Origin: a virus
Virus record (IMG/VR): IMGVR_UViG_3300027863_001490
Strand: one strand, 5' to 3'
Length of the DNA stretch: 47,476 nucleotides
Shown: in pieces, positions 1-47,476 of the stretch
How positions within the stretch are numbered: position 1 is the first letter of the stretch
Layout of the letters: every line of letters starts with the position of its first letter
Made by a program: the position numbers and the translations under genes
The notes under the pieces: generated by a model
Told to the model about the DNA's origin: nothing
What the model saw: the letters and a program-made list of their open reading frames with translations, nothing else
Databases searched by the model: none

Positions 1-127
1 GCCAATCTGGAAGGAGTACGAGGACAAGAGAGCGCCAATCTGGAAGGAGTACGAGGACAAGAGAGCGCAAATCTTGAAGGAGTACGAGGACAAGAGAGCG
101 CAAATCTTGAAGGAGAAAAAACAAAAA
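1..127. repeat. Terminal redundancy, identical to 47350-47476 (circular assembly overlap)
   Basis: 127 nt at both ends are identical, including the non-repeat tail GGAGAAAAAACAAAAA; an ORF reads across the join. Confidence 0.9.
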
Positions 128-402
128 TGAGTGACCAAGTGCCCAAAATCGCAGAACTCGCCGAAATCCAAAAACAACTCAACGAACTCAAAGAAACCAT
201 CGACACCATAAGAGACGAAATCCTTGAATCCATCGAAGACACCCAAAAACAACTAAACGCCAAACTGCTCGAAATTGGAGCCTTCCAGCAAAACGTCTTA
301 GAACCCAATCAACAAAAAATCTGGAACGACGGAATAGGTACAATTCTTAAAACACTTAAAGAAGTCGAAAAAGTCCTAAACATAGAGCCTGACGAACAGT
401 GA
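127..402 (+). CDS. Small coiled-coil hypothetical protein
   Basis: GGAG upstream; ATGA overlap with stop of junction-spanning ORF; heptad-like Leu/Ile pattern. Confidence 0.75.
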   Translation: MSDQVPKIAELAEIQKQLNELKETIDTIRDEILESIEDTQKQLNAKLLEIGAFQQNVLEPNQQKIWNDGIGTILKTLKEVEKVLNIEPDEQ

Positions 403-8525: not shown

Positions 8526-8691
8526 CAAAAACAAAAAAGGCAACCCTCAATTCGAGTTATTTTCTGGAATGGGAAACGTTACGCTTTGCCCTTCATGTGG
8601 CAGCCCCGACGTTGAAGAGACGGAAAGGGAAATTCTCTGTCATACATGCGGGATGGGCAAATACAAGGATGGGAGGCGTCATTTTGGTTGA
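8506..8691 (+). CDS. Zn-ribbon protein
   Basis: CPSCGS...CHTCG; ATG at 8506 more plausible than track start 8434. Confidence 0.7.
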   Translation: MVQVQVNKNKKGNPQFELFSGMGNVTLCPSCGSPDVEETEREILCHTCGMGKYKDGRRHFG

Positions 8692-9838
8692 AATTGCAAC
8701 TCAAGTAACGGCGTCTTCTGACGGCGACGCAATCCTCGAAGAGTTCCTTTCTTACCTGAAACCGAGTACCGCCAGCGTGTACCGCATAACTTTCAGGAAA
8801 CATTTTTTACCGTACCTGAAAACCGTTGAGTTTCACGGCGAAAAAATCCCCAATCTCCAAGTGATGCTAGATCTAATCAGCGCCGACCAAGCAAAAACCG
8901 TCAGGGAAAAACAGAATGTTGGCAGAGCAATATTCAAAGGCTTCAGCGAATACCTCATAGCGGAGGGTATGGCGCCGAAAAGCGTCGTCAACAGGGTTGG
9001 CGCCGTCCAAAGTCTCTGCAAATTCAAGGAATTAGCCGTTAGCACGAAATGGATTCAACTGCCTGAACCGATTGCTCAAACTAAAAGCTTCGCATGGACT
9101 ATTCAATGGTATGAAATCCACAATGCTTACTTGAAACACGCCGATTACCGAGCGTTAAGCGCCTGTACTTTCCAGTCGGGGTCAGGCATCAGCGACGTGT
9201 TGGCACGCCCCTACGGTTTAATTCAGAAACAATACGAAGCGCAGCTAGAAAACATCTCCAAACAAATAGCATACTTAGCCGCATCGAAGACCTACGCTTT
9301 AAGCCCAGAGTTCCCAGTTAAATCGATTGTTTTCAGGGCAGTCAGAATCAAAACTGGGGTTGAGCACCGCACCTGTTATGGACCCGAAAGCCTTGTGCTC
9401 ATCAAACGACACTTTGACGAAATATACGGCGAAAACGGAGTTCCGAAGCTTGAAGAGCCAATCTTTAAGATGCAGCGGCGCCCAATCGATGAACTCTTCG
9501 CTGTCCGAGCAAAAACTCTAATCGGCGAGTGGCCTTTCAGAAATCCAATGAGCATTCATGGTTTCCGAAAGTTTTTCCGTAAACGCATGGTTAAAGAATG
9601 TCACTGCCCAAGCGAATACGCCGAATACTTCATGGCTCACCAGTTGAAGGGTGACATGCGGAAAACCTACAGTGAAATGGAGGATCACGAGTGGCTTCAA
9701 ATCTATCGGGAATATGGGGAGCCTAAGTTGTTGCCGGATGGGACGCTTCAAACTGGTTTGGCGTTTAGGATTTTGCCTTATGAGGTTGCCCAGCGGGAGT
9801 TTAAGAAGCTCGGGTCGGCTCCAGCCCTCTCCACCTGA
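8684..9838 (+). CDS. Tyrosine recombinase/integrase (open frame extends to 8597)
   Basis: RIKTG (Lys), IHGFRKFF (HxxR), FMAH, RKTY (Tyr); box I reads QSGSGISDVL with Gly at the usual Arg position; TTG start with GGAGG upstream. Confidence 0.85.
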   Translation: MVEIATQVTASSDGDAILEEFLSYLKPSTASVYRITFRKHFLPYLKTVEFHGEKIPNLQVMLDLISADQAKTVREKQNVGRAIFKGFSEYLIAEGMAPKSVVNRVGAVQSLCKFKELAVSTKWIQLPEPIAQTKSFAWTIQWYEIHNAYLKHADYRALSACTFQSGSGISDVLARPYGLIQKQYEAQLENISKQIAYLAASKTYALSPEFPVKSIVFRAVRIKTGVEHRTCYGPESLVLIKRHFDEIYGENGVPKLEEPIFKMQRRPIDELFAVRAKTLIGEWPFRNPMSIHGFRKFFRKRMVKECHCPSEYAEYFMAHQLKGDMRKTYSEMEDHEWLQIYREYGEPKLLPDGTLQTGLAFRILPYEVAQREFKKLGSAPALST

Positions 9839-23478: not shown

Positions 23479-24492
23479 TTGGTAGGCATACAAGGAAAAA
23501 ATCTCACATGGCTGTTTTTGATTTTCTTTGTATCGCCCTGTGTTCTGCTCTTCATGCTGGCGGGGTCCAGAAGCCTCTCAGATTACATAACAACCACATT
23601 CTACGTGATAACCCTCGCTTTTTCCTTGATAATCTTGAAGGAAATCAACACTGACGAACAATACTATGAACCATTAACTTTAGAACCCTTAATCGCCTCG
23701 GTTCTTTTAGGCGTCGGCATGTTTGCTTTAAGCGCCGCTTTGAGTTTAAGCCTAAAAAACTCTGACATGCTCCTATCCATTGTTCCCTTGACTTTAACAG
23801 CGTCACCAACCAGCATCGCAACAACTTTTCTAAGTGCGTCCCTTTTCGGTTTAGCCTTAATCGCTAGTGGCGAAGAGCTCTGGAAGCTGCCGATGTTCGC
23901 TGAAGGACGTGCCCGATGGGGAAAAGGATACAATATTCCCCGAGTTGTCTTCGCGATCTGCATGTGCTTACTCGGCTTGTTAGTGGCAATGCTGCTTTTG
24001 AATGCTTTAAATGTGCTTTCATACTTCAACTTCGGCATAGTCGCCGTCGTTTTAATCGTGGTTTTCGCTTTAGTCTTCAGCTTAATTGTCAAGCGCCCAA
24101 AATTCACTGTTCCCGGCATCCTCATTTACGTCGGCGTCCCAGTCGGATTCTGGGCGGCGTTACATGGGATTGAAGCGTACAGTAACCCCGTCATGATTTT
24201 GCCAGCCGCCGTCAACGGAGTCGTATTAATTGTTTACCTCTGGAAATACCGTTGTATCCTAGGCTGCATTTTCGCCCACTTCATCTACAACACTCTCATA
24301 ACGGCGTTGTCTTACTTCAACGGGACAGCAAACGTGCAAGCTGGGCTTCCCCTGTTCCCCGACTTCTTTTCCCGATCATATTACAGTAACAGCGGCTTCA
24401 TCTACGATTACGCCGTCATCGCAATCTGGTTCTTCGGGGTTTTCCTGTTCCTGTTGCCGTCTTTGACGAAACAGAAGGCCAACAAAAAATGA
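23479..24492 (+). CDS. CPBP-family (Abi/PrsW-like) intramembrane glutamic protease
   Basis: GEELWK (EExxK), FWAALH, AHFIYN (HxxxN) in a polytopic protein. Confidence 0.8.
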   Translation: MVGIQGKNLTWLFLIFFVSPCVLLFMLAGSRSLSDYITTTFYVITLAFSLIILKEINTDEQYYEPLTLEPLIASVLLGVGMFALSAALSLSLKNSDMLLSIVPLTLTASPTSIATTFLSASLFGLALIASGEELWKLPMFAEGRARWGKGYNIPRVVFAICMCLLGLLVAMLLLNALNVLSYFNFGIVAVVLIVVFALVFSLIVKRPKFTVPGILIYVGVPVGFWAALHGIEAYSNPVMILPAAVNGVVLIVYLWKYRCILGCIFAHFIYNTLITALSYFNGTANVQAGLPLFPDFFSRSYYSNSGFIYDYAVIAIWFFGVFLFLLPSLTKQKANKK

Positions 24493-24938
24493 AGCATACA
24501 ATAATCGTCTGTGTCTTGTTTTGCGAGTTAATAGGCTTCGCCTCAAGTTTAACAGGAGATTTTTCTTGGTATAACAGTTTGGTGAAGCCAAGCTTTGCCC
24601 CGCCTAACTATGTTTTTCTTCCAATCTGGCTTACTCTCTACGCTTTAATGGGGTGGTCCCTTGCCAGATTCATCAACTCAAAGAAGCAACATAAAATGGT
24701 TGGCTACAGCTTTTTTGGCATTCAACTATTCTTGAACGCTCTTTGGAGCAACCTCTTTTTCGGTTTACGCTCAACCTTTTTTGGTTTAGCAGATATTTCA
24801 GCGCTTTTAGCGTTTATTGTTTTAACTATCTGGAAATTCTGGATGGTTGACAAAAAAGCTGCCTTGCTATTGGTTCCCTATATGTTATGGGTTTGTGTTG
24901 CTTTATTGCTGAATTTTTATGTTTGGCGACTGAACTGA
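24489..24938 (+). CDS. tspO: TspO/MBR tryptophan-rich sensory protein
   Basis: WYNSLVKPSFAPPNYVFLPIWLTLY, QLFLNALWS-LFFG, LLVPYMLWV; five TM. Confidence 0.95.
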   Translation: MKHTIIVCVLFCELIGFASSLTGDFSWYNSLVKPSFAPPNYVFLPIWLTLYALMGWSLARFINSKKQHKMVGYSFFGIQLFLNALWSNLFFGLRSTFFGLADISALLAFIVLTIWKFWMVDKKAALLLVPYMLWVCVALLLNFYVWRLN

Positions 24939-34125: not shown

Positions 34126-34623
34126 ATGTCTCTTTCAAAAGCGGCAGTCATTATCGCCGCTATCATTGGGACTGTTTTAATTTGTTACTGGCTTAATGCT
34201 CCTTGGTCACTGGCTATTTTAGGCATTGTCTCTTTTGTTTGTATAGGCTTCATTAACCAAATAGTTTCATTGGTTAAGGGTTTAATGAAGAAACCTGACC
34301 TTTCTAAAGAAGGATTTAATACTGTAACACAAACAATCAGCGAAAGCGTAACCTACATCCGAAGCCAATATGTGCAGCGCCGTTTTCTGATTAAATATCA
34401 ACGTTCTAACCCTTATCATTCCTCCGCTGACGATCCCGCCCTTTATGATCGGCGACGCCAATCTATGGAGGAGTTGCCAAGCGACATATTGAACAGAATC
34501 GATACGATAACCGTCGAATGTGATAACGCGGTCTTCAAACGCAAATCTGTCTTGTATTCGTACTGGAAACCCACTTCTTCTCCTGAGCAACCTTCACAGC
34601 GCCAAGCGGGGCATAACTTTTGA
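34126..34623 (+). CDS. Membrane protein (N-terminal TM hairpin); open frame extends to 33913
   Basis: Two TM helices; GAGGG upstream of ATG 34126. Confidence 0.7.
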   Translation: MSLSKAAVIIAAIIGTVLICYWLNAPWSLAILGIVSFVCIGFINQIVSLVKGLMKKPDLSKEGFNTVTQTISESVTYIRSQYVQRRFLIKYQRSNPYHSSADDPALYDRRRQSMEELPSDILNRIDTITVECDNAVFKRKSVLYSYWKPTSSPEQPSQRQAGHNF

Positions 34624-36794
34624 GCTCTGATGATCGCTATTTTAATTTCAATAGCCGCGTTTACGAAAACAGTTTGGGCAAAGAAATCATTGCTGTTTCT
34701 ACTGGCAGAAGCAACCTCGGCGGTTTGCTCTGGTGGATGGACCAACTCGATTTCGTTGACATCGCCGATTTAGCTGACAGAATCAGCGCAAAATTCACCT
34801 TTTTTGATTCAGCTTCAAGAAAATGCAGTTTAGAATCGCTTTCTCGCCCCCAAAATATCCGTGAAGACGAAATAAGCGCTGTTATGGGTTACTGTTGCCC
34901 TAAATGTGGCAAACTGGTTCCCATTATGGCTGATTCAGAGAGAAAATTTTGCTCTTGCGACTCGGAAAACGAATTGACATATTTACTTATCTTTGATAAG
35001 TTGTGGGAACTTAATATTATTCCTACTCCCGAGGCCGTGTTGATGTTTCTGGCTTGGGATTACCTCGCAGACGCTTATGTTGATGCTTATTCGGCGTTTC
35101 AGCGGGTTTTAGCTGCCCTCGTTAAGCAGTATGGTTTGAATAATGCTTTCCAGTTTATCGATGCCGACTTTAAGGATCGCTTAGATTCGATATTTCTCTA
35201 TGTTGATTCGGGGGATGTCCGCATGAGTAAGGAGGAGCGGGAGATTTTGATGTTTCTTCCTCGTGGTGCCTTCGCTAATATTGGTTTTGCTGAAGCTGAA
35301 GAGTTCATTCGCGCCGCTATGGATGTCTGCAAATATGGTTATCTCGCCAACAAATTGTTTTGTGCTGGCGCCGACGTTCAATATGAAGTTGCAAGAGCCA
35401 AGTTTTCTCATCTCTATAATCCGTTGAATGAAAAGATTCGGCGTGCATTGGTGATTACTAGGGCTGAACGGGGTAAACGGAGCATCGAGTATTTGCGGTT
35501 ACAGAAGGATGGTAAAGACCTTGATGTTTTCTTTCCCTGTTACATGTTGGATAACCGTTACTGGTCAACTGGTAAGCTTTCCAAAAACCTTATTCTTAAA
35601 CCTGTTGAGGATATGCCTATTTTCACTACTTACAAGGACTGCGCTGTTAATCTTTGTGTGGCGCCTTCTGGCAAAGGTAAAAGCACGCTTATGGCTGCGA
35701 ATATTGCTTATGCCTTCACTCAGAAGGAGCTTATCTTAAGCGTTTTAGGCGATGAATCGAATAGTCTTTCTTTGGCGTCGTTGCCTCTTTTCCATTGTAA
35801 AGGCAGAAGTGGCTCGTTGCTGGAGTCTTTGGCAAAGACTGGGGTGAAGCCGAGTGGGATTCCGACTTTAACGTTGACTTTTCTGCGTGAAAACGAATCC
35901 ATCGACAAAGACAACTATGAAGCGAACCCGCCGACGATTTTTGATCGGATCGTGCGGATCAGGGAGCCTTGGGATTTTGGCTTAAAATTCCATAACAAAG
36001 ACAAAGCAGTTCGCGAAGGCAAAGAAAGCCCCGGAATCCTCGATGTGCTAAACGAAATCGCGGTGTCTATGGGGTATAAAGCTGACTGTGATTATGGTTT
36101 AGTTAACGTTCGCAACTTAAGCCGGTACAGCACCGACGATGACAAGGAAGGCGCTGATGCAGATATTGAGGTCGCCACGACTTTTATGCAGAAATTCGCT
36201 GTTTGGCGTGAAAACTGTAAAGACCCCGCTTGCCGTCTCGTAGCTGATGAAGCCAGTTATTTGGCGCCTTCAACCTATAATGTTGCGGGTAAGGATACTT
36301 CGAAAAGCAGCGGCATGTTGACTAACACGATTAAGAAGGTGCGTAAGAAGCGGACCAGCTTCGATTTGGGCACACAGAAATACAGCGAAATTAACACCGA
36401 AGTCAAAGTTCAGGCTTTCAATGTTTATTTCCGTGAGTTGCCTCAGTCTGGGGATAAGAGTCGTAGTCAAAGGGATTTGGTGCTTGAAAGTTTATCTTTG
36501 AAGGAAGGCAAATCGGAGAGGGAACTGATTTCTTCGCTTATGGAGAAGAGTGTTTTTCCTGATGACGAGTTTTTCTGGTTTTACTGGAATCAACTTGAGA
36601 AGCGTATTCGAGTAGTTAAGCCGACTGTGCCTTTTTTTATGATTAACCAGCCGCATCTTACTAACCGAGAGATTTTCCGTGAATACGAAAAGTTAACTGG
36701 CGCCAAGGTTTTGCTGGATTCATGGGATGAAGTGCCAGCTTTGAAGTACAAGAACGATGTTTACACGCCGAACCAGTACACGTTCAGAGTTTAA
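34620..36794 (+). CDS. FtsK/HerA-superfamily P-loop ATPase with long Zn-finger-containing N-terminal region
   Basis: Walker A APSGKGKST, Walker B RLVADEA, VRKKRTSFDLGTQ (Arg finger/Gln motif); CPKCG..CSC. Confidence 0.85.
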   Translation: MSSDDRYFNFNSRVYENSLGKEIIAVSTGRSNLGGLLWWMDQLDFVDIADLADRISAKFTFFDSASRKCSLESLSRPQNIREDEISAVMGYCCPKCGKLVPIMADSERKFCSCDSENELTYLLIFDKLWELNIIPTPEAVLMFLAWDYLADAYVDAYSAFQRVLAALVKQYGLNNAFQFIDADFKDRLDSIFLYVDSGDVRMSKEEREILMFLPRGAFANIGFAEAEEFIRAAMDVCKYGYLANKLFCAGADVQYEVARAKFSHLYNPLNEKIRRALVITRAERGKRSIEYLRLQKDGKDLDVFFPCYMLDNRYWSTGKLSKNLILKPVEDMPIFTTYKDCAVNLCVAPSGKGKSTLMAANIAYAFTQKELILSVLGDESNSLSLASLPLFHCKGRSGSLLESLAKTGVKPSGIPTLTLTFLRENESIDKDNYEANPPTIFDRIVRIREPWDFGLKFHNKDKAVREGKESPGILDVLNEIAVSMGYKADCDYGLVNVRNLSRYSTDDDKEGADADIEVATTFMQKFAVWRENCKDPACRLVADEASYLAPSTYNVAGKDTSKSSGMLTNTIKKVRKKRTSFDLGTQKYSEINTEVKVQAFNVYFRELPQSGDKSRSQRDLVLESLSLKEGKSERELISSLMEKSVFPDDEFFWFYWNQLEKRIRVVKPTVPFFMINQPHLTNREIFREYEKLTGAKVLLDSWDEVPALKYKNDVYTPNQYTFRV

Positions 36795-37944: not shown

Positions 37945-38457
37945 TTGCAACGCAAAAACGTCTTTGCCATAGTTTTGCTTGTATTGGGTGCTGTGTTGCT
38001 GTTTTTCAGTGTGCACAGCGCTTTCTATGTTGGCGCCCCTTGGTTCAATGAGCGAGCGAATGAGGCTTGGCATATGAACAATTATTTTGTTGTGCCGGGT
38101 CTTGTGGCTTTCATCGGTTTCGCTTTTGTTCCTTGGCTTTTCGGCGGCGTCTTTATGGGTGCTTTTGTTGTGGCTGTTTTTTGTTTAAAGGGCAAAAAGC
38201 GGAAGTGGCTAATCGTTTTGGGGTTGGCGATGGCGGGGTTGATTGCTTTAGGCTTTAACACGTTCGATTTTATGTTGGGATGTTTCTATTGGACCAACAT
38301 GGCCGAGCCGGCGCCGGTGCTTGTGGATTTGGTGTTTTGTGCTTTCTATGTGAATGCGTGGGATTTCTACTTTTTTGGTTTTTTGATGCCGCTTCTTGCG
38401 GGGGGATTCTGTTTTGGGGCTTCGGCGGCTTTGGCGTTTTCTAAGGTGAAGATTTAG
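37945..38457 (+). CDS. Multi-pass membrane protein
   Basis: 4-5 TM segments. Confidence 0.75.
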   Translation: MQRKNVFAIVLLVLGAVLLFFSVHSAFYVGAPWFNERANEAWHMNNYFVVPGLVAFIGFAFVPWLFGGVFMGAFVVAVFCLKGKKRKWLIVLGLAMAGLIALGFNTFDFMLGCFYWTNMAEPAPVLVDLVFCAFYVNAWDFYFFGFLMPLLAGGFCFGASAALAFSKVKI

Positions 38458-38491: not shown

Positions 38492-38710
38492 ATGTTAAAA
38501 AATACAAAACTTGGCGTTGCTCTTCTAATTATCGGTTCTGTCTTGCTGGGCTACAAAGCCACTGAAATCGCTATTGTTCTCCAAAAAGTTACTGGTCAAA
38601 ATTCTGGTCTTGTGCTTTCACCAATAACTATTCCGATTTTGCTGTGTGGAACCGTATTGTTTGAGTTGGGCATCTACATTCTTGTTAAAGCTAAAGTATT
38701 CAAGAAATAG
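38492..38710 (+). CDS. Small two-TM hairpin protein
   Basis: Two hydrophobic helices, basic termini. Confidence 0.7.
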   Translation: MLKNTKLGVALLIIGSVLLGYKATEIAIVLQKVTGQNSGLVLSPITIPILLCGTVLFELGIYILVKAKVFKK

Positions 38711-38751
38711 TTGCCTGTCTTTTCTCTTTTTTCTTTTAGGAATGGATTCGC

Positions 38752-40668
38752 TTGAAGCATGGAAAATTATACGGGTTCGGCGCTGTTTTTCTCATCGTTT
38801 TAACTCTTGCTGGATTATACATTTACGATCCAGCAATTTTCAGTAATTCACAGCAAAACACAACTTTGAGTATCAGCCAAATCAACGTTGACCCCCAAGG
38901 TTCACCAGTCGGTAACGAATGGAAAGGAAGCTTCTGGAATCTCTTAGTGTACGTGAACGCTAACGACGATATAGCTGGCGTAATTTTGCCTAAAGGTCAA
39001 ACTGGCTCCATCACTTACCAAGGCGCTGTCGAAGCCTTAAAAACAGGTGCTAAAGTCGAAATAAAAATTGATCCACAGCAACCCTATTTGATCCGTGATC
39101 TTCAAGAAAAATATGCTATGCCCGCCCCCGGCGCTGTCGGAGTTGCCACATCAACCACACAGCTTGATCTACGTTACTATGGTTGGGGTGAGGCAACTTG
39201 GCGAATTTACACGCCTTTTACCGTGTCAATCTATAAAGACGGCGTTTTAGTTGGCCAGACAACTTTGAATGATCAGGGACAGAGCTCGGTTCAATCAGTC
39301 AGTACCTCCGAAGGTGCTGTTAGAATCGAAAACCTTGGGCTTCTAGGCGGCAGCTACACGTCGCCGAATACTCCTAGCCAAATCTGCATCCTCAAAGGAT
39401 ACCCCAACGTCTACGACTTAACCCAAGTAAACAGCATCATAAGCGGCACTTATGGAAACTACTGGTTCGGCACTAGACGTGAAGGTAACAACGTCGCAGT
39501 TAACCCGACAATGGTTTACCCGGGGTTGCTAATTGGCAACGTTTACCCGCCGTCTACAATCGGCGGCTGGAAAAGCCTCAACAGCGGCGGCAGCGATGTA
39601 GGCGGCAAAGTTGACCCTGTAAAACCCGTAATTAGCAGCGGCGAAAAATCTTCTTTGCCGTCTGATAAACAAAAATATTCTTCTTTAACTGAATACATTG
39701 CTGGCTCGGGAATAGCTGACCTTGCAAATAGTCTTTTCCAGTCACGCGCCGCTGGCTTTTCAGGTGCTTTATGGCAAAAAGTCAGTCTTGTAACAGATAC
39801 TAACGGACAAACTGCTTTGAAACTTGACATTCCTTGGAGTGCCTTCGGTACACCCCTCGTGAATATTCGGGTTCCAACAGAACTCGCAGACACCTTCGTT
39901 GAGCAACCTATTGTAACAAGCACTCAAGTGTCGGCGGTTTGGCAAACATCAGGGACCGCATACGGTGACATTTCTGGGAGTTTACGTATTGCTTGCACCG
40001 TAACCAACACTGGAACAGTAACAGGTAGCACCATGCTTTCGGTTTCTTCTGGAAACAGCAAGCTTTCACTTACACCCCTAACCCAAACAGTAAATAACCT
40101 TCAACCTAACGTTCCCCAAACAGTTTACTTCGATGCAACCAACCTCGGCGTCGAAAACGAAATCTCAAATATACCCGTCACAATAATCGCCAAAGATACC
40201 TACACTGGCTCAGAAACAGGTCGCTGCACCCTCTACGGAACATTATTATCTACTTTAACGCCGGGAACAACAACTCTCAGCATAAACGTCTATGAAAAAG
40301 GAACAACGACACCCGCGCCTAATCTGCAATTATCTGTTCAATATGGCACACAAACATTAACTCCAGTAACAGACGCTAACGGTGGGACTGGCGGCTTAAC
40401 TTTGACGACTCCGCAAGGCGGCGCCTTCGTTGGTTCTGTGCTCATCACCAGCATGGAGACTTCTACCTATAAAGCTGGAACAATGACTTACCAGATTAAC
40501 CAAGCGGGTGCCTACATTGCAACTTACGAAGTAGAACGCAAAGATACCCAATACATCGATTGGGTGTTAATTGCCATTATAGTCATAATTGTGGTGGTCT
40601 TTGTCGCCATCATCGGCGGGGGCGTCTATGCGTTGCGGAAAAATAAGCATGGTGGAAAACATCGTTAG
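38752..40668 (+). CDS. Putative fusexin (Fsx1/HAP2-like class II membrane fusogen)
   Basis: N-terminal signal/anchor, beta-rich ectodomain with collinear blocks resembling archaeal Fsx1 as recalled, Ig-like domains, single C-terminal TM; the CDS is certain, the family call is unverified. Confidence 0.65.
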   Translation: MKHGKLYGFGAVFLIVLTLAGLYIYDPAIFSNSQQNTTLSISQINVDPQGSPVGNEWKGSFWNLLVYVNANDDIAGVILPKGQTGSITYQGAVEALKTGAKVEIKIDPQQPYLIRDLQEKYAMPAPGAVGVATSTTQLDLRYYGWGEATWRIYTPFTVSIYKDGVLVGQTTLNDQGQSSVQSVSTSEGAVRIENLGLLGGSYTSPNTPSQICILKGYPNVYDLTQVNSIISGTYGNYWFGTRREGNNVAVNPTMVYPGLLIGNVYPPSTIGGWKSLNSGGSDVGGKVDPVKPVISSGEKSSLPSDKQKYSSLTEYIAGSGIADLANSLFQSRAAGFSGALWQKVSLVTDTNGQTALKLDIPWSAFGTPLVNIRVPTELADTFVEQPIVTSTQVSAVWQTSGTAYGDISGSLRIACTVTNTGTVTGSTMLSVSSGNSKLSLTPLTQTVNNLQPNVPQTVYFDATNLGVENEISNIPVTIIAKDTYTGSETGRCTLYGTLLSTLTPGTTTLSINVYEKGTTTPAPNLQLSVQYGTQTLTPVTDANGGTGGLTLTTPQGGAFVGSVLITSMETSTYKAGTMTYQINQAGAYIATYEVERKDTQYIDWVLIAIIVIIVVVFVAIIGGGVYALRKNKHGGKHR

Positions 40669-40682
40669 GAAGGGGTTAAGTC

Positions 40683-42044
40683 ATGCGTTTTGCCCCTAAA
40701 TTTTTTCTTGTTTTAGCAACTCTTTTTCTAAGCGTCGGCGTCGTATTGACTGGTTCGCTTGGTTACGCTCAACTTAACGGTTTAAGCTTAACAGGAGACA
40801 CCTACACCGTAAACTTTGACAGCGGCAACGGGTTTTCTCCTAGCTCCATCACGATTAACCGAGGAGACTTAGTTTATGTCGATTGGCCGCTTGAATCATA
40901 CACAATTTCTTATCCTGAAACTGCTACAGTAGAAATTTCTTGGAGCCTCGACGGTCACTATTTTGGAAGCACCGAAATAAGCGACGCAATAACTTTTACG
41001 CCGAAAACTAACCAGTATGGACTCACAGTTAACGGTTTAGTCCAATTCGACATTGCAGGCAAACACACGCTTTCTCTATATGTGGTTTGGGTTGGTCAAG
41101 AGGGGACGCCGTATTACTCGGGAACTTTTAGTTGCGAAGTCACCGTTAACGCTCCCGCCGTCAAGAAATCTTTGTCTCTTGCGGTTTCAGGCGAAGGAAG
41201 CTTGTATGCGGGTCCGTCATCTACCACTTGGGAAGTCACGATTTACGCTGGCGACTCTTCTACAAAGGTCTACGAGAGGGATCAATACTCGCTTGTTTAC
41301 CTCGAAGCCAGACCAACAGTTGGCTGGCGTTTTCTGTATTGGCTAATGAATGACGGTTCGCAGCGTACAAGCCAAGACATAGGCGTTGTCCTCGACGATG
41401 ACATGAGTGCGTTAGCTGTTTTCGGTCAACAAGCAGTTTTAACGGTTTCAACTGACGGTTTAGGCTACGTGACTGTTTCGCCTCCCATTGACCCGGGCGC
41501 CAGCAACGTTGACACAGTTTCTGCGGGGCAATCCAAACTTTTCCAGCATGACTTTGGAACACAAATCACGCTTTATGCTTGGCCATTAAGCAACTGTGCC
41601 TTTGACCATTGGATTCTCCCCGATGGCTCAACAAGCACAAGTAACCCCGTTTCGTTTACTTTGTCTTCTGACAGTTCTGTTCAAGCCGTTTTCCGTTATG
41701 GGTCTTCATCAACGCCTAACCCAACGGTTTCACCTACAGATCAGCCTTACCCCACTTTGGAGCCCACCGTAGCGCCGACAGTAGCTCCCACAGTTGAACC
41801 TACCCCTATTCCAACGGTGACTCCGCAACCAACACTTTACCCCACTCCCTCTCCAACTCCTACACTGCAACCCACCACCTCAGTTAACCCATCCGCTTCC
41901 CCCTCGCCGACGCCTTCAACAATCAACTTTTTTATCCCAAAAACTTACAGGACACTCGCATGGATTAGTGGCTTCGCATCTTTGGGTTTAAGCGGCGTCT
42001 GCTTTACATTCTTCAAGTTGACTTTGCCCCGTCGCCGCAGCTAG
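40683..42044 (+). CDS. Surface protein paralog A: Ig-like domain, two InlB B-repeats, PT linker, TM
   Basis: [30 protein letters not shown] then TM. Confidence 0.85.
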
Positions 42045-42091
42045 TCTTCCTTTCTTTTTTCTTTTGATGCAAAAAATGGGAGTGTCTATTC

Positions 42092-43498
42092 TTGAAGTCT
42101 GGCGCTAAAGTTTTCGTTTCAGTCGGCGCCGTTCTCTTTCTAATCGGAGCCGTATTATGTGGTTCCTTCCTTTATGCTCAAGCTAAAGGCTTAAGTCTTT
42201 TCGGTGACACCTACACCGTAAATTTTGTCGTCACTGGAACTCAGTGGCAGCAAACTGTGGGTTACGGCGATAACTGGTTCCAATATGAAGTAGGCTCTTT
42301 TGACTCTGCAAGCATCAACATCGCCCCCGGCGACTCCGTTTATTTTAACGTTCCAATAGGCGCTTACAGAAGCGGCGACGCCCTAATGTATCAGGTTTTG
42401 TGGGCTGTCTACAGTGGCGTCTCAGAAATCGGCGGCAACGTCAAACCTGACAGTCAAATCCCCGGCGAATACACCGCTAACGAGTACGGCGAAATTGCAA
42501 ACGCCAAAATGACTTTTCCAGCGGCAGGAACATACGATGTCCACTTGGTCTGTTACTCATACGGTCTTTATAGCGGTCCAAGCGCAACCATCACCGTAAA
42601 CGTTGTTGCACCACAGGTTTACAAAACGATCACCGTTGGCATTTCTGGGCAAGGCATGGTTACTGGCGGCTTGACTTCTGCAAAAATCAGTTCACCCGCC
42701 GAAAACCGCTTCGACGTGCATTCTGGCGACCCAAATTATGTCCGTGAATATCAACAGTTTTCTCTTCTCGACTTTACCGCTGGAGCTTACTCTGGCTACA
42801 AATTCGACCATTGGCTACTAAACGATGGCAGCACAAAAACCGACAACCCAATCAGCATCATCTTAGAGAACGACATGAGCATCCAAGCAATCTTTACGAG
42901 TCAAGGAGTCTTAACTGCCATGAGCGTCGGAAACGGCTACTTCACGATTTTTCCCGGCGTAACTGATCCGCACGCCGCGCAGGATATTGTTTATGCGGGT
43001 CAAACTAAGACTTTCCAGCATGACGCTGGCACCCAAATTGAGTTAGCTGCCTTCGGAAACAGCGGTTCACAGTTTGACCATTGGGTTCTGCCTGATGGTC
43101 GAACTTCAACGAGTTACACTGAATCCTTCACTATGGGTAGCACTGGAACCGTGATTGCTTATTTCACTTCAACATCTTCTCCAACTGCTACCCCAACTCA
43201 AACGCCGTCTCCAACTGAAACGCCTTACCCAACTTTGCCGCCTGAGACGCCTTTGCCGACTGCGGAGCCAACGCCGATTCCAACAAACACGGCTCAACCA
43301 ACAGTAACGCCGACCCCCACGCCGACTGCGGCGCCGACAAGTAACCCGACGCAGCAGCCAACGCCTACCCCGACGATTCAGCCTTCGAATCCGACTTTCT
43401 GGATTCCAAAAGGATACCGCTTCTATGCGTTGCTCGCAGGCATCTTTAGCTTATTCGGTAGCGCCTTCTGTTTCGTAATCGCCAAAAAGTACGGTTAA
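42092..43498 (+). CDS. Surface protein paralog B
   Basis: [30 protein letters not shown] then TM. Confidence 0.85.
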   Translation: MKSGAKVFVSVGAVLFLIGAVLCGSFLYAQAKGLSLFGDTYTVNFVVTGTQWQQTVGYGDNWFQYEVGSFDSASINIAPGDSVYFNVPIGAYRSGDALMYQVLWAVYSGVSEIGGNVKPDSQIPGEYTANEYGEIANAKMTFPAAGTYDVHLVCYSYGLYSGPSATITVNVVAPQVYKTITVGISGQGMVTGGLTSAKISSPAENRFDVHSGDPNYVREYQQFSLLDFTAGAYSGYKFDHWLLNDGSTKTDNPISIILENDMSIQAIFTSQGVLTAMSVGNGYFTIFPGVTDPHAAQDIVYAGQTKTFQHDAGTQIELAAFGNSGSQFDHWVLPDGRTSTSYTESFTMGSTGTVIAYFTSTSSPTATPTQTPSPTETPYPTLPPETPLPTAEPTPIPTNTAQPTVTPTPTPTAAPTSNPTQQPTPTPTIQPSNPTFWIPKGYRFYALLAGIFSLFGSAFCFVIAKKYG

Positions 43499-44373: not shown

Positions 44374-44944
44374 TTGAGTTATGGAACTAACAGTCGAGGC
44401 GGCGGTTATGGTGGAAGAAATAGAGGTTCAAGTAAGCGTTTTGCTATGCGTACCGCCAAAAAAATTGCGTTTTGCTATGCGTACCGCCAAAAAAATTGAC
44501 CGCGTTGTTGACAGAATGGAAAACCTCATAGATGACGTACAAAAGACTGGCAACCAAGCGGCTGACGTACATCTTAACCGTGCGGGTCTAGAAGCTAATC
44601 GGGCTTCAAGAGCTCTGAAGAACGATGATGGCAAAACAAAGCCAAAGGCTAATTATAGGTTGACTGATAAAGAGCTTGAAGCAGAAGACAAAAGAGACCA
44701 CTATAATTTCGATAGGCTTGTAAATAAAGACGACATCGATACCACAAACCCAAAGAACAAAAAAATCTACTATCAAATACTTGCGGTCTTGGAAAAGAAT
44801 AAGATTCCATACTATGCAGATACTCACTTGGATAAAAAGGATGATTCTGCTGATTCTTCATTGCTTGTCTCAAGAGAAAATATGCCTAGAGCAGAAAAAT
44901 TAATTCAAGGACTCTACATTGCTTTGCGGAAAACTTTTGACTAA
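44374..44944 (+). pseudogene. RGG-leader protein 2, frameshifted by a 31-bp duplication
   Basis: TTG 44374 gives LSYGTNSRGGGYGGRNRGSSKRFAMRTAKKI then stop at 44497-44499; removing one copy restores the frame to 44944. Confidence 0.75.
44436..44497 (+). repeat. 31-bp tandem duplication GCGTTTTGCTATGCGTACCGCCAAAAAAATT x2
   Basis: Exact copies 44436-44466 and 44467-44497. Confidence 0.9.
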
Positions 44945-47038: not shown

Positions 47039-47476
47039 ATGGTGCTAAAAATCAAATATCGGCTAGCTCCCGTTGTGGTCGAAAATGACGTAAACCGAAC
47101 GCTCAGGGACTTAGCCAAAGAATTTCAAGAAATTTTCGAAGACGACAATAAAGCCAACATATTTGAAAAAGAGCTTAGAGCCAAGTTTGACTTAAACGGT
47201 ACAGAGAACACGCCTAGAGGGAAAACCAATTCAATATTTGGAGAAAAAACAAAAATGAACAAAAAACAAAAAAAGCAATTAGTGCCAATCTGGAAGGAGT
47301 ACGAGGACAAGAGAGCGCAAATCTTGAAGGAGTACGAGGACAAGGAAGCGCCAATCTGGAAGGAGTACGAGGACAAGAGAGCGCCAATCTGGAAGGAGTA
47401 CGAGGACAAGAGAGCGCAAATCTTGAAGGAGTACGAGGACAAGAGAGCGCAAATCTTGAAGGAGAAAAAACAAAAA
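47039..47476 (+). CDS. Junction-spanning ORF (continues to stop at 128-130) with 11-aa repeats; internal start possible at 47255
   Basis: Open frame encodes ...VPIWKEYEDKR-AQILKEYEDKE-APIWKEYEDKR...KKQK*. Confidence 0.7.
   Translation, partial: MVLKIKYRLAPVVVENDVNRTLRDLAKEFQEIFEDDNKANIFEKELRAKFDLNGTENTPRGKTNSIFGEKTKMNKKQKKQLVPIWKEYEDKRAQILKEYEDKEAPIWKEYEDKRAPIWKEYEDKRAQILKEYEDKRAQILKEKKQK
47282..47464 (+). repeat. 33-bp coding tandem repeat, five full units plus one partial
   Basis: Two unit types (CCAATCTGG / CAAATCTTG) in order A B A A B B. Confidence 0.9.
47350..47476. repeat. Terminal redundancy, identical to 1-127
   Basis: Exact match. Confidence 0.9.

What the first reader, a model, noticed from the sequence alone, without database searches (positions are those of the whole stretch)
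38752..40668. Putative fusexin (HAP2/Fsx1-type class II fusogen) on a complete 47-kb archaeal element
Seen: 638 aa with an N-terminal hydrophobic segment, a beta-rich ectodomain, two Ig-like modules and one C-terminal TM. From recall of the published haloarchaeal Fsx1 sequence (not an alignment), several blocks appear in the same order. NEWKGSFWNLLVYVNANDDIAGVIL resembles the first domain I strands. YTPFTVSIYKDGVLVGQTTLNDQG and VRIENLGLLGGSYTSP resemble the domain I/II strands and ij region. LDIPWSAFGTPLVNIRVPTELADTFVEQPIVTSTQV resembles the domain I-III linker. RIACTVTNTGTVTGS...NLQPNVPQTVYFDA resembles domain III. The would-be fusion-loop region (EKYAMPAPGAVGVATS) is short and Cys-free, and a plain Ig module replaces the Cys-rich domain IV, so this would be a divergent lineage. 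Established: fusexins drive eukaryotic gamete fusion and entry of class II enveloped viruses; archaeal Fsx1 was described mainly from integrated mobile elements of halophiles. Inference: this element carries a fusogen in a virion-like gene cluster, probably outside halophiles.
Basis: partly seen in the sequence, partly recalled or inferred. Interest (0 to 1): 0.95.

Follow-up and report, generated by a model that had tools for sequence, protein, structure and literature searches.

The report
New archaeal class II fusogen-like family
A mobile DNA circle from hot-spring Bathyarchaeia encodes a membrane-anchored protein whose predicted structure matches the class II fusion proteins that merge gametes (HAP2) and let alphaviruses, flaviviruses and bunyaviruses enter cells, yet its sequence is unrelated to the known archaeal Fsx1, so it is probably a second, undescribed archaeal branch of this fusogen superfamily.

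Summary
The 638-aa ORF at 38752-40668 (+) is real. It has an N-terminal hydrophobic segment, a beta-rich ectodomain, two C-terminal beta-sandwich domains and one C-terminal TM.

It founds a conserved, unnamed family: 144 clusters at 50% identity. The family occurs sporadically in Bathyarchaeia (5 of 401 genomes), always on mobile elements.

No sequence method links it to HAP2 or Fsx1. Pfam PF10699, NCBIfam NF053506 and the PDB 7P4L sequence all fail, while a genuine Fsx1 control hits all three.

AlphaFold2 models are confident (pLDDT 85.5 for the whole protein; 92.5, pTM 0.85 for residues 36-390). Three independent fold searches return almost only class II fusogens across domains I, II and III: HAP2, alphavirus E1, flavivirus E, bunyavirus Gc, Fsx1 and EFF-1. 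A DI/DII homotrimer model scores far above its controls.

On a near-identical backbone (L011), the ectodomain and two adjacent adhesin genes are replaced as a 4.7-kb cassette.

Verdict: a new fusexin-fold family, probably the fusion and entry protein of an integrative 47-kb element. Fusion activity is untested. The scan holds no look-alike in other windows.

The parts
38728..38737 (+). T-rich promoter-like box (TTTTTCTTTT), 15 nt upstream of the TTG start
   Evidence: The motif occurs 21 times in the window against 1.29 expected, mostly on the + strand just upstream of gene starts. The sequence was read. The stretch 38726-38802 is 88% identical to L011.
38752..40668 (+). Fusexin-fold (class II fusogen-like) type I membrane protein, 638 aa (P0001)
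   Evidence: ORF. Family. AF2 model. Fold matches.
38752..38841 (+). N-terminal hydrophobic segment (aa 1-30): signal peptide or signal anchor
   Evidence: Helix 4-25. 21 of 30 residues are identical to L011's protein although the ectodomain is only 18-28% identical. Cleavage could not be determined.
38869..39876 (+). Domains I and II (aa 40-375), intertwined as in class II fusogens
39127..39162 (+). Candidate fusion loop (aa 126-137, PGAVGVATSTTQ) at the tip of the long hairpin 112-125/138-145
   Evidence: This assignment is an inference. It is the least conserved ectodomain segment (0.41). Its length varies: about 20 of 42 homologues carry a roughly 20-aa insert with aromatic, amphipathic strings such as TYRSWMNKILP. 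Its position at the DII tip was not verified, because no coordinates were available.
39865..39921 (+). DI-DIII linker (aa 372-390) holding the family's most conserved motif, IRVPTELADTFV
   Evidence: Conservation 0.83, the highest 12-mer. T376-T381 and P386 are nearly invariant. The segment lies between the end of the DI/DII alignments (about 380) and DIII (391).
39922..40257 (+). Domain III (aa 391-502), Ig-like
40264..40545 (+). Domain IV (aa 505-598), a Cys-free beta-sandwich of transthyretin/CnaB type
40561..40665 (+). C-terminal TM helix (aa 604-630) and short basic tail (631-638)
   Evidence: Helix 604-630. A single C-terminal TM in 39 of 42 homologues.
38803..43497 (+). 4.7-kb variable cassette: the fusexin-like ectodomain plus two InlB-repeat surface proteins
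   Evidence: blastn against L011: flanks are 77-88% identical, and there is no DNA similarity inside the cassette. Protein identities are 28% and 36-39% inside, against 80-87% for backbone genes.
40683..42044 (+). InlB B-repeat (Flg_new_2) surface protein with a Pro/Thr linker and C-terminal TM
   Evidence: Pfam PF18998, E 1e-9. Sequence.
42092..43498 (+). Paralogous InlB B-repeat surface protein with a PT linker and C-terminal TM
   Evidence: Pfam PF18998, E 1.1e-13. Paralogy: repeats D7 and D15.
34620..36794 (+). 724-aa P-loop ATPase of the conserved module upstream; probably FtsK/HerA/TrwB-like
   Evidence: Syntenic in L001 (33% identity) and L011 (87%). Atlas language-model features resemble FtsK/HerA/TrwB/CedB clusters at score 0.91, which is a lead only. 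No Pfam or PDB sequence hit.
37945..38457 (+). 170-aa multi-TM protein, a conserved upstream neighbour
   Evidence: 52-84% identical in L001, L002 and L011, always just upstream of the fusexin-like gene.
1..127 (.). Terminal direct repeat, identical to 47350-47476, indicating a circular element
   Evidence: Repeat family D1. An independent assembly is 47,490 bp.

Best explanation
The gene encodes a membrane-anchored protein with the class II (fusexin) fusogen fold. It founds a sequence family distinct from HAP2 and Fsx1. The family is carried by integrative mobile elements of about 47-50 kb, and by smaller ones, in Bathyarchaeia.

Proposed mechanism; every step is inferred from the fold and from how known class II fusogens work:
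1. The protein sits on the element-specified membrane, either the producer cell surface or a vesicle or virion envelope. It is held by its C-terminal TM as an extended monomer with domains in the order DII-DI-DIII-DIV.
2. After the neighbouring InlB-repeat adhesins attach to a target cell, the tip loop of the DII hairpin (aa 126-137, or the longer aromatic version in relatives) inserts into the target membrane.
3. Protomers trimerise through DII contacts around a three-fold axis.
4. The strongly conserved DI-DIII linker lets DIII and DIV fold back. DIV acts as a rigid stem substitute. This pulls the TM anchor toward the inserted loops and merges the two bilayers.
5. Fusion delivers the element's DNA, or joins two cells.

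Shown here: the ORF, the family, the predicted fold, the in-silico trimer, the mobile-element context and the cassette exchange. Not shown: membrane insertion, trimerisation in reality and fusion.
For: Fold of the whole protein:
- Model pLDDT 85.5.
- Foldseek against PDB returns only class II fusogens at the top: AtHAP2 5ow3 E 1.8e-11, CrHAP2 1e-9, alphavirus E1, Fsx1 7p4l 5.9e-9, RVFV and CCHFV Gc, each with 500-600 aligned columns.

Fold of DI/DII alone:
- Model pLDDT 92.5, pTM 0.85.
- All 45 Foldseek PDB hits and all 65 BFVD hits below E 1e-3 are class II glycoproteins.

Topology: a single C-terminal TM and a basic tail.

Homotrimer of DI/DII:
- ipSAE 0.66, best of 3 controls 0.00.
- The mark was reached by 20 of 30 proteins solved as pairs of one chain and by 1 of 23 solved as single chains.
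- Runs agree in at least 61% of contacts; partner pLDDT is at least 69.
- Self-contacts lie on the axis at aa 209 and 224.
- Solved class II trimers exist, so the pass may reflect likeness to them.

Sequence link: DIII aligns in register with Fsx1 DIII in a profile-profile comparison (88.9%, E 2.4e-6).

Context:
- A conserved module of ATPase, TM proteins, fusexin-like gene and adhesin across elements.
- Integrated copies in chromosomes.
- Sporadic distribution, 5 of 401 genomes.
- Cassette replacement of the ectodomain plus adhesins on a 78-88% identical backbone, as expected for host-interaction or entry proteins.
Against: - There is no experimental evidence of fusion.
- There is no sequence similarity to any fusogen in DI or DII.
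- Global TM-scores are low (0.15-0.35).
- The window's own candidate fusion loop is short and only mildly hydrophobic. Its location at the DII tip could not be verified without coordinates.
- The invariant HAP2/Fsx1 DIII disulfide and all other disulfides are absent.
- Almost no stem separates DIV from the TM.
- It is unknown whether the N-terminal hydrophobic segment is cleaved. If it is not, the protein would be anchored at both ends.
- No capsid or other virion marker was found, and no RNA data were available.
Confidence: 0.6

Rival explanations
1. The protein has a class II-like fold but is not a fusogen. It would be a surface adhesin, a receptor-binding protein or a coat/lattice protein of the element or host envelope that reuses the fusexin scaffold. 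The anchorless bacterial and DPANN HAP2/Fsx1 relatives noted elsewhere in this scan may be such cases.
Against: The protein keeps every architectural element a fusogen needs: a full DI/DII/DIII, a conserved DI-DIII linker and a C-terminal TM anchor in 39 of 42 members. It has a predicted trimer. Many relatives carry aromatic, amphipathic tip-loop inserts. Dedicated adhesins are already encoded next door.
Confidence: 0.25
2. It is simply a very diverged orthologue of archaeal Fsx1, belonging to the same family and not to a new one. On this view it mediates cell-cell fusion for conjugation-like transfer of integrated elements, as proposed for Fsx1.
For: It has a four-domain ectodomain like Fsx1 (DI-DIV). 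DIII shows profile-level similarity to Fsx1 DIII. It resides on integrated mobile elements with a HerA/FtsK-like ATPase, as reported for Fsx1 IMEs. Fsx1 was also reported in two Bathyarchaeota MAGs.
Confidence: 0.1
3. The class II resemblance is an artefact of structure prediction. On this view the protein is a string of unrelated beta-sandwich domains, that is, an ordinary archaeal surface protein.
For: Global TM-scores are low (0.15-0.35) and the rmsd of whole-chain alignments is 20-33 A. DIII and DIV match many generic Ig-like domains. The ESM Atlas shape search gave nothing.
Against: Two independent AF2 runs without templates gave high confidence (pLDDT 92.5, pTM 0.85 for DI/DII). Once the Ig domains were removed, the hit lists were still almost purely class II, in three libraries and with two algorithms. 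Alignments consistently end at the targets' DI/DII-DIII boundary. The high whole-chain rmsd is explained by a hinge state: the best global fit is to the extended prefusion CmHAP2 (rmsd 11.4 A against 27-29 A for post-fusion trimers).
Confidence: 0.05

Closest known systems
Archaeal Fusexin 1 (Fsx1; PDB 7P4L; NCBIfam NF053506; Moi et al. 2022, PMC9259645)
   Different: No DI/DII sequence similarity and no NF053506 or PF10699 hit. Cys-free, against 10-22 Cys in Fsx1, including the invariant DIII disulfide. DIV is a transthyretin/CnaB-like sandwich, not the Cys-rich chitin-binding-like domain. There is always a single C-terminal TM, against three in the crystallised Fsx1. The charge is not extremely acidic (42 D+E against 39 K+R). 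The hosts are hot-spring Bathyarchaeia.
Eukaryotic HAP2/GCS1 gamete fusogen (PF10699; 5MF1, 6E18, 5OW3, 7S0K)
   Different: No Pfam hit. 9-13% identity in structural alignments. No disulfides. An extra DIV. A prokaryotic mobile-element context.
Viral class II fusion glycoproteins (alphavirus E1, flavivirus E, bunyavirus Gc)
   Different: There is no companion or chaperone protein of the E2/prM/Gn type and no polyprotein. There are no disulfides and no recognisable capsid gene. The host is an archaeon.
Pleolipovirus spikes (HRPV VP4/VP5) and plasmid-vesicle elements such as pR1SE
   Same: The analogy rests on my own knowledge. Both involve a membrane-anchored spike next to small membrane proteins and an NTPase, on a capsid-less archaeal element that can integrate.
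   Different: The pleolipovirus spike has its own V-shaped fold, not class II. No sequence or fold match to it was seen here.

Membership tests
Fusexin / class II fusogen structural superfamily | Three-domain ectodomain: a discontinuous beta-sandwich DI, an elongated DII inserted in it, and an Ig-like DIII after a linker | tested here: met
   This rests on a predicted structure only. Class II proteins dominate the Foldseek and VIA-align searches for the whole protein and for DI/DII alone. A dengue DI-only construct aligns 107 of 116 residues over model 1-346.
Fusexin / class II fusogen structural superfamily | C-terminal transmembrane anchor following the ectodomain | tested here: met
   TM helix 604-630. 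One C-terminal hydrophobic segment in 39 of 42 homologues.
Fusexin / class II fusogen structural superfamily | Hydrophobic or uncharged fusion loop(s) at the DII tip (cd loop) | tested here: inconclusive
   The candidate is loop 126-137, between long strands 112-125 and 138-145. It is uncharged, variable, and carries aromatic inserts in about half of the relatives. Its tip location is not verified because no coordinates were available.
Fusexin / class II fusogen structural superfamily | Homotrimer in the post-fusion state | tested here: inconclusive
   The test was in silico only. DI/DII x3 gave ipSAE 0.66 against a best control of 0.00. The mark was reached by 20 of 30 solved one-chain pairs and 1 of 23 single chains. 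Contact agreement is at least 61% and pLDDT at least 69. The pass may reflect likeness to solved class II trimers.
Fusexin / class II fusogen structural superfamily | Membrane fusion activity | not testable with these tools
   Needs a cell-cell or liposome fusion assay.
HAP2/GCS1 (Pfam PF10699) | Match to the HAP2-GCS1 profile | tested here: not met
   No hit at E <= 1. The control Fsx1 ORF hits at E 3.9e-11.
HAP2/GCS1 and Fsx1 | Invariant disulfide between DIII strands betaC and betaF | tested here: not met
   No conserved Cys column anywhere. C415 and C492 of P0001 are V and D in most relatives. In the hhalign register the Fsx1 Cys positions face non-Cys residues.
Fsx1 (NCBIfam NF053506; PDB 7P4L) | Sequence or profile similarity to Fsx1 | tested here: not met
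   NF053506 does not hit P0001, P0040 or P0043 at E <= 1, while the controls hit at 1e-31 to 1e-34. The family profile against the 7P4L sequence gives no hit at E <= 10. hhalign matches DIII only.
Fsx1 (NCBIfam NF053506; PDB 7P4L) | Cys-rich chitin-binding-like domain IV | tested here: not met
Fsx1 (NCBIfam NF053506; PDB 7P4L) | Carried on integrated mobile elements with DNA-mobilisation ATPases | tested here: met
   Integrated copies occur in G001 (at least 50 kb), L005 and L009, the last with an integrase and MCM. A conserved P-loop ATPase has FtsK/HerA-like features, which is a lead only.
Pleolipovirus spike (VP4/VP5) | V-shaped VP5-type fold | tested here: inconclusive
   It is not among the listed fold matches in any library. 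The tools warn that an unlisted family is not excluded.

The most novel reading that the evidence does not exclude
The 47-kb circle is a capsid-less, enveloped virus-like or plasmid-vesicle element of Bathyarchaeia, and this protein is its envelope fusion protein. That would make it the first class II fusogen of a prokaryotic virus-like particle. It would form a swappable host-range cassette with its adhesins and give a living link between archaeal mobile elements, viral class II glycoproteins and HAP2.
Probability: 0.3. Interest if true: 0.92.

Novelty: new variant of a known kind. Interest (0 to 1): 0.8.

Why it matters
Fusexins are the only fusogen superfamily shared by viruses, eukaryotic gametes and archaea. 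Their origin, the 'virus or the egg' question, is unresolved, partly because only one archaeal family (Fsx1) is known and its non-halophile assignments were treated with caution.

This family adds several things:
- It is a second archaeal family that cannot be linked to Fsx1 by sequence.
- It is firmly placed in Bathyarchaeia (Thermoproteota) chromosomes and in a free 47-kb circle from hot springs.
- It is disulfide-free and has a different fourth domain.
- Its DI/DII core is at least as close to viral E1 and to HAP2 as to Fsx1.
- Its ectodomain is exchanged together with adhesin genes on a conserved backbone, which is the behaviour of a viral envelope gene.

Together these make concrete experiments possible on how uncultivated archaeal elements move between cells. 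They also supply a new deep branch for structure-based phylogenies of fusogens.

Tried and rejected
Sequence searches on P0001:
- Pfam, PHROGs, NCBIfam and PDB sequence searches with the protein and with the family profile gave only noise: Insulin_TMD, tonB_Cterm and designed Ig proteins.

Structure and collection searches that gave nothing:
- The ESM Atlas shape search with the DI/DII model had no meaningful match, TM <= 0.29.
- The IMG/VR scan with the family pattern found no relative.
- An Fsx1 motif scan of IMG/VR found none.
- The pleolipovirus spike and S-layer proteins did not appear as multi-domain matches in any fold search. This is absence from the lists only.

- The recalled alignment blocks were checked by BLASTP against a real Fsx1. 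The 'first domain I strands' block matches Fsx1's last DI strand and linker, out of register, and is probably coincidental.

Fusion-loop placement:
- Linear interpolation from E1, E and Fsx1 numbering points to aa 144-172. That region holds the conserved tight KDG hairpin.
- I rejected this as unreliable, because the first DII excursion here is much shorter than in those proteins. Coordinates are needed.

Other attempts:
- Expression: no RNA holder is listed among the sequencing runs.
- The genome search centred on the window failed because no genome is held for it. I re-centred on G001.
- The ATPase had no Pfam, NCBIfam or PDB sequence hit.
- Typing published Fsx1 sequences from the paper's supplement was left out. 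Instead I fetched their contigs by a short degenerate motif.
Full report
**Observation**

The ORF at 38752-40668 (+) exists as described. It starts with TTG and encodes 638 aa. A T-rich box, TTTTTCTTTT, lies 15 nt upstream. This box occurs 21 times in the window against 1.3 expected, almost always just before gene starts, so it is probably the element's promoter element.

The contig has identical 127-nt ends. The same element was assembled independently at 47,490 bp. The DNA comes from hot-spring metagenomes.

**A real, conserved, unnamed family**

The word-indexed search found 47 clusters at 90% identity, reaching down to 23% identity to the query. The exhaustive HMMER search found 144 representatives at 50% identity, 113 of them with E <= 1e-10 and nearly all 600-700 aa long. 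None carries a name or a Pfam domain.

Named records are Bathyarchaeia or Thermoproteota MAGs. One copy lies inside a 2.1-Mb chromosome contig. Only 5 of 401 sampled species genomes of that class have a match, which is an accessory, mobile distribution.

**Sequence-level tests against known fusogens are negative, with working controls**

- P0001 and the family profile hit nothing relevant in Pfam, PHROGs, NCBIfam or the PDB sequences.
- To obtain a true control by reference, I fetched the contigs of two published Fsx1 proteins with a short degenerate motif. These are HHR27186.1, assigned to Ca. Bathyarchaeota, and RLG58774.1, both from Moi et al. Suppl. Table 1.
- The 618-aa L006 ORF hits crystal Fsx1 7P4L (E 8.8e-15), Pfam HAP2-GCS1 (E 3.9e-11) and NCBIfam Fsx1 NF053506 (E 2.1e-34).
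- P0001, P0040 and P0043 hit none of these.
- BLASTP of P0001 against that Fsx1 shows nothing in register.
- hhalign of the two family alignments gives one match only. It is in register: DIII 411-502 against Fsx1 DIII 359-447, 88.9% probability, E 2.4e-6.

**Structure**

AF2 with a 42-sequence alignment gave pLDDT 85.5. Residues 36-390 alone, with 68 sequences, gave pLDDT 92.5 and pTM 0.85.

Whole protein:
- The Foldseek PDB list is headed exclusively by class II fusogens: AtHAP2 1.8e-11, CrHAP2, alphavirus E1, Fsx1 5.9e-9, RVFV and CCHFV Gc. Each aligns over 500-600 columns.
- In VIA-align over 48,161 representative chains without a prefilter, the only chains that span model residues 40-500 are the following:

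|---|---|---|---|
| CrHAP2 | 13.0 | 29.3 | 333 |
| AtHAP2 | 12.2 | 26.8 | 306 |
| Fsx1 | 11.3 | 26.7 | 300 |
| CmHAP2 (prefusion, extended) | 9.8 | 11.4 | 298 |

- The large rmsd values reflect hinge state. The monomer model fits the extended prefusion CmHAP2 far better than the post-fusion hairpins.

DI/DII model alone (this removes the generic Ig domains):

|---|---|---|---|
| CmHAP2 | 9.0 | 5.1 | 247 |
| E1 | 8.1 | 6.3 | 216 |
| RVFV Gc | 7.9 | 5.9 | 228 |
| Spondweni virus E | 7.4 | 6.4 | 215 |
| Fsx1 | 7.0 | 5.8 | 228 |
| Atlas virus Env | 7.0 | 5.4 | 195 |
| EFF-1 | 6.9 | 5.8 | 223 |

- A dengue construct containing DI only aligns 107 of its 116 residues over model positions 1-346. DI is therefore built from discontinuous segments, which is the class II hallmark.
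- All 45 Foldseek PDB hits and all 65 BFVD hits below E 1e-3 are class II glycoproteins.

Other domains:
- DIV (505-598) is a transthyretin/CnaB-like sandwich.

**Domain map**

This map is an inference from the secondary structure and the alignment ranges.

| Residues | Assignment |
|---|---|
| 1-30 | signal or anchor segment |
| 40-100 | DI, N-terminal part |
| 101-150 | first DII excursion: a long hairpin 112-125/138-145 with tip loop 126-137 |
| 151-193 | DI, middle part |
| 194-342 | second DII excursion, with helices 223-239, 296-301 and 312-318 |
| 343-375 | DI, C-terminal part |
| 376-390 | DI-DIII linker |
| 391-502 | DIII |
| 505-598 | DIV |
| 604-630 | TM |

- The linker motif IRVPTELADTFV is the most conserved 12-mer in the family (0.83).
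- The tip loop is the least conserved ectodomain segment (0.41).
- The tip loop varies in length. About half of the relatives carry a roughly 20-aa insert with aromatic, amphipathic strings such as TYRSWMNKILP and TYGTWINKINPF. This resembles HAP2 fusion helices.

**Trimer**

Three copies of DI/DII gave ipSAE 0.66, with runs at 0.61-0.68, against a best control of 0.00. The mark was reached by 20 of 30 proteins solved as one-chain pairs and by 1 of 23 solved as single chains. Contact agreement is at least 61% and pLDDT at least 69.

Interface residues are aa 145-150, 203-210, 222-231, 319-322, 328 and 340. Self-contacts at 209 and 224 place DII segments on the three-fold axis. Because class II trimers have been solved, the pass may reflect likeness to them.

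**Differences from Fsx1 and HAP2**

- There is no conserved Cys, with 0-6 per protein, so the invariant DIII disulfide is absent. The Fsx1 clade has 10-22 Cys.
- There is always one C-terminal TM. The Fsx1 clade has one to three.
- DIV has a different fold.
- The charge is near neutral, whereas Fsx1E has a net charge of -67.

**Context**

The window also encodes:
- an N6/N4 methylase, ResIII and SNF2 helicases, ASCH, a PD-(D/E)XK nuclease, a ParB-like protein, an RHH regulator, a CPBP/Rce1-like protease and TspO;
- three InlB-repeat surface proteins;
- a 724-aa P-loop ATPase with FtsK/HerA/TrwB-like features, which is a lead only.

No capsid, portal or terminase was detected.

The following module is collinear in L001 and L011: proteins of about 290, 348 and 236 aa, then the ATPase, a 214-aa gene on the opposite strand, a 170-aa TM protein, the fusexin-like gene and an adhesin.

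Integration:
- G001 carries an integrated relative of at least 50 kb that is collinear with the window.
- L005 lies next to cellular genes.
- L009 is a small integrase + MCM element that carries the same gene.

**Cassette exchange**

Against L011, backbone genes are 80-87% identical. The fusexin-like protein is 28% identical and the adhesins 36-39%.

At the DNA level, similarity runs at about 78% up to 38471. It is 88% over 38726-38802, which covers the promoter box and the first 17 codons. It vanishes from 38803 to 43497 and resumes at 43498. Consistently, the signal segment is 21 of 30 identical while each ectodomain region is 18-28% identical.

This is the pattern of a swapped host-interaction or entry module.

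**Literature**

- No paper in the library combines Bathyarchaeia with class II fusion.
- No later archaeal fusexin family turned up.
- Described Bathyarchaeia viruses are head-tailed, adnaviral or spindle-shaped.
- Moi et al. reported Fsx1 on integrated elements with XerC/D, HerA, VirB4 and TraG.
- The scan's own notes hold no look-alike of this protein. Related notes concern bacterial HAP2 homologues and an anchorless DPANN Fsx1.

**Conclusion**

This is a new sequence family with the fusexin fold, most likely the fusion or entry protein of an integrative Bathyarchaeal element.

Three points remain open. Does it fuse membranes? Does it act from a virion or vesicle, or between cells? Is loop 126-137 the fusion loop?

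Noticed in passing
window, 21 sites, e.g. 2790, 19889, 21275, 22927, 23454, 37927, 38728, 42056, 43504, 44349: The decamer TTTTTCTTTT occurs 21 times against 1.29 expected. It is mostly on the + strand, 15-30 nt upstream of start codons. It is probably the element's shared promoter (TATA-like) box and suggests leaderless or short-leader transcripts.
   Followed up: partly
window 24489-24938 (+); L001 12484-12972: The element encodes a full-length TspO/MBR membrane protein (Pfam E 1.5e-40). A 42% identical copy sits just downstream of the fusexin-like gene in the integrated relative L001. This is an unusual cargo for an archaeal mobile element.
   Followed up: no
window 38803-43497 against L011 10052-13348: The variable cassette holds two paralogous InlB-repeat/PT-linker surface protein genes in the window (40683-42044 and 42092-43498) but only one in L011. 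Adhesin copy number therefore changes along with the cassette.
   Followed up: partly
L009 4603-16207 (contig SRR27370447_19785): A 57% identical fusexin-like gene sits in a much smaller integrated element. That element has a tyrosine integrase, an 813-aa MCM and a ParB-like gene, and is flanked by cellular genes (radical SAM, TtuA, TBP). The gene therefore moves between unrelated element backbones.
   Followed up: partly
L002 (JAQTNH010000004.1): A 60% identical copy lies on a 10.9-kb contig binned as 'Candidatus Nanoarchaeia'. This is either a binning error for a mobile contig or a hint of a host range beyond Bathyarchaeia.
   Followed up: no
window 1-160 and 47251-47476: The contig ends consist of 33-nt tandem repeat units (family D1, six copies of a 127-nt register). 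The 127-nt overlap that suggests circularity therefore lies inside a repeat array, possibly an origin or iteron region. The exact unit count may be an assembly artefact.
   Followed up: no
window 44436-44497: A perfect 31-nt tandem duplication (GCGTTTTGCTATGCGTACCGCCAAAAAAATT x2) lies inside the ORF 44381-44944.
   Followed up: no
window 39543-39923 (-): A 126-aa antisense ORF inside the fusexin-like gene appears 'conserved' in tblastn (50-59% identity in five loci). It is most likely a shadow of the conserved + strand coding sequence and not a gene.
   Followed up: partly
window 8597-9838 (+): A 413-aa protein without any family hit is conserved in L002, L005 and at the far end of the integrated copy in G001 (25-29% identity). 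Its position makes it a candidate undescribed integrase or recombinase of these elements.
   Followed up: no
window 38492-38710 (+): A 72-aa protein made of two hydrophobic helices lies immediately upstream of the fusexin-like gene. The architecture recalls the small two-helix structural proteins of spindle-shaped or pleomorphic archaeal viruses. No homology was tested.
   Followed up: no
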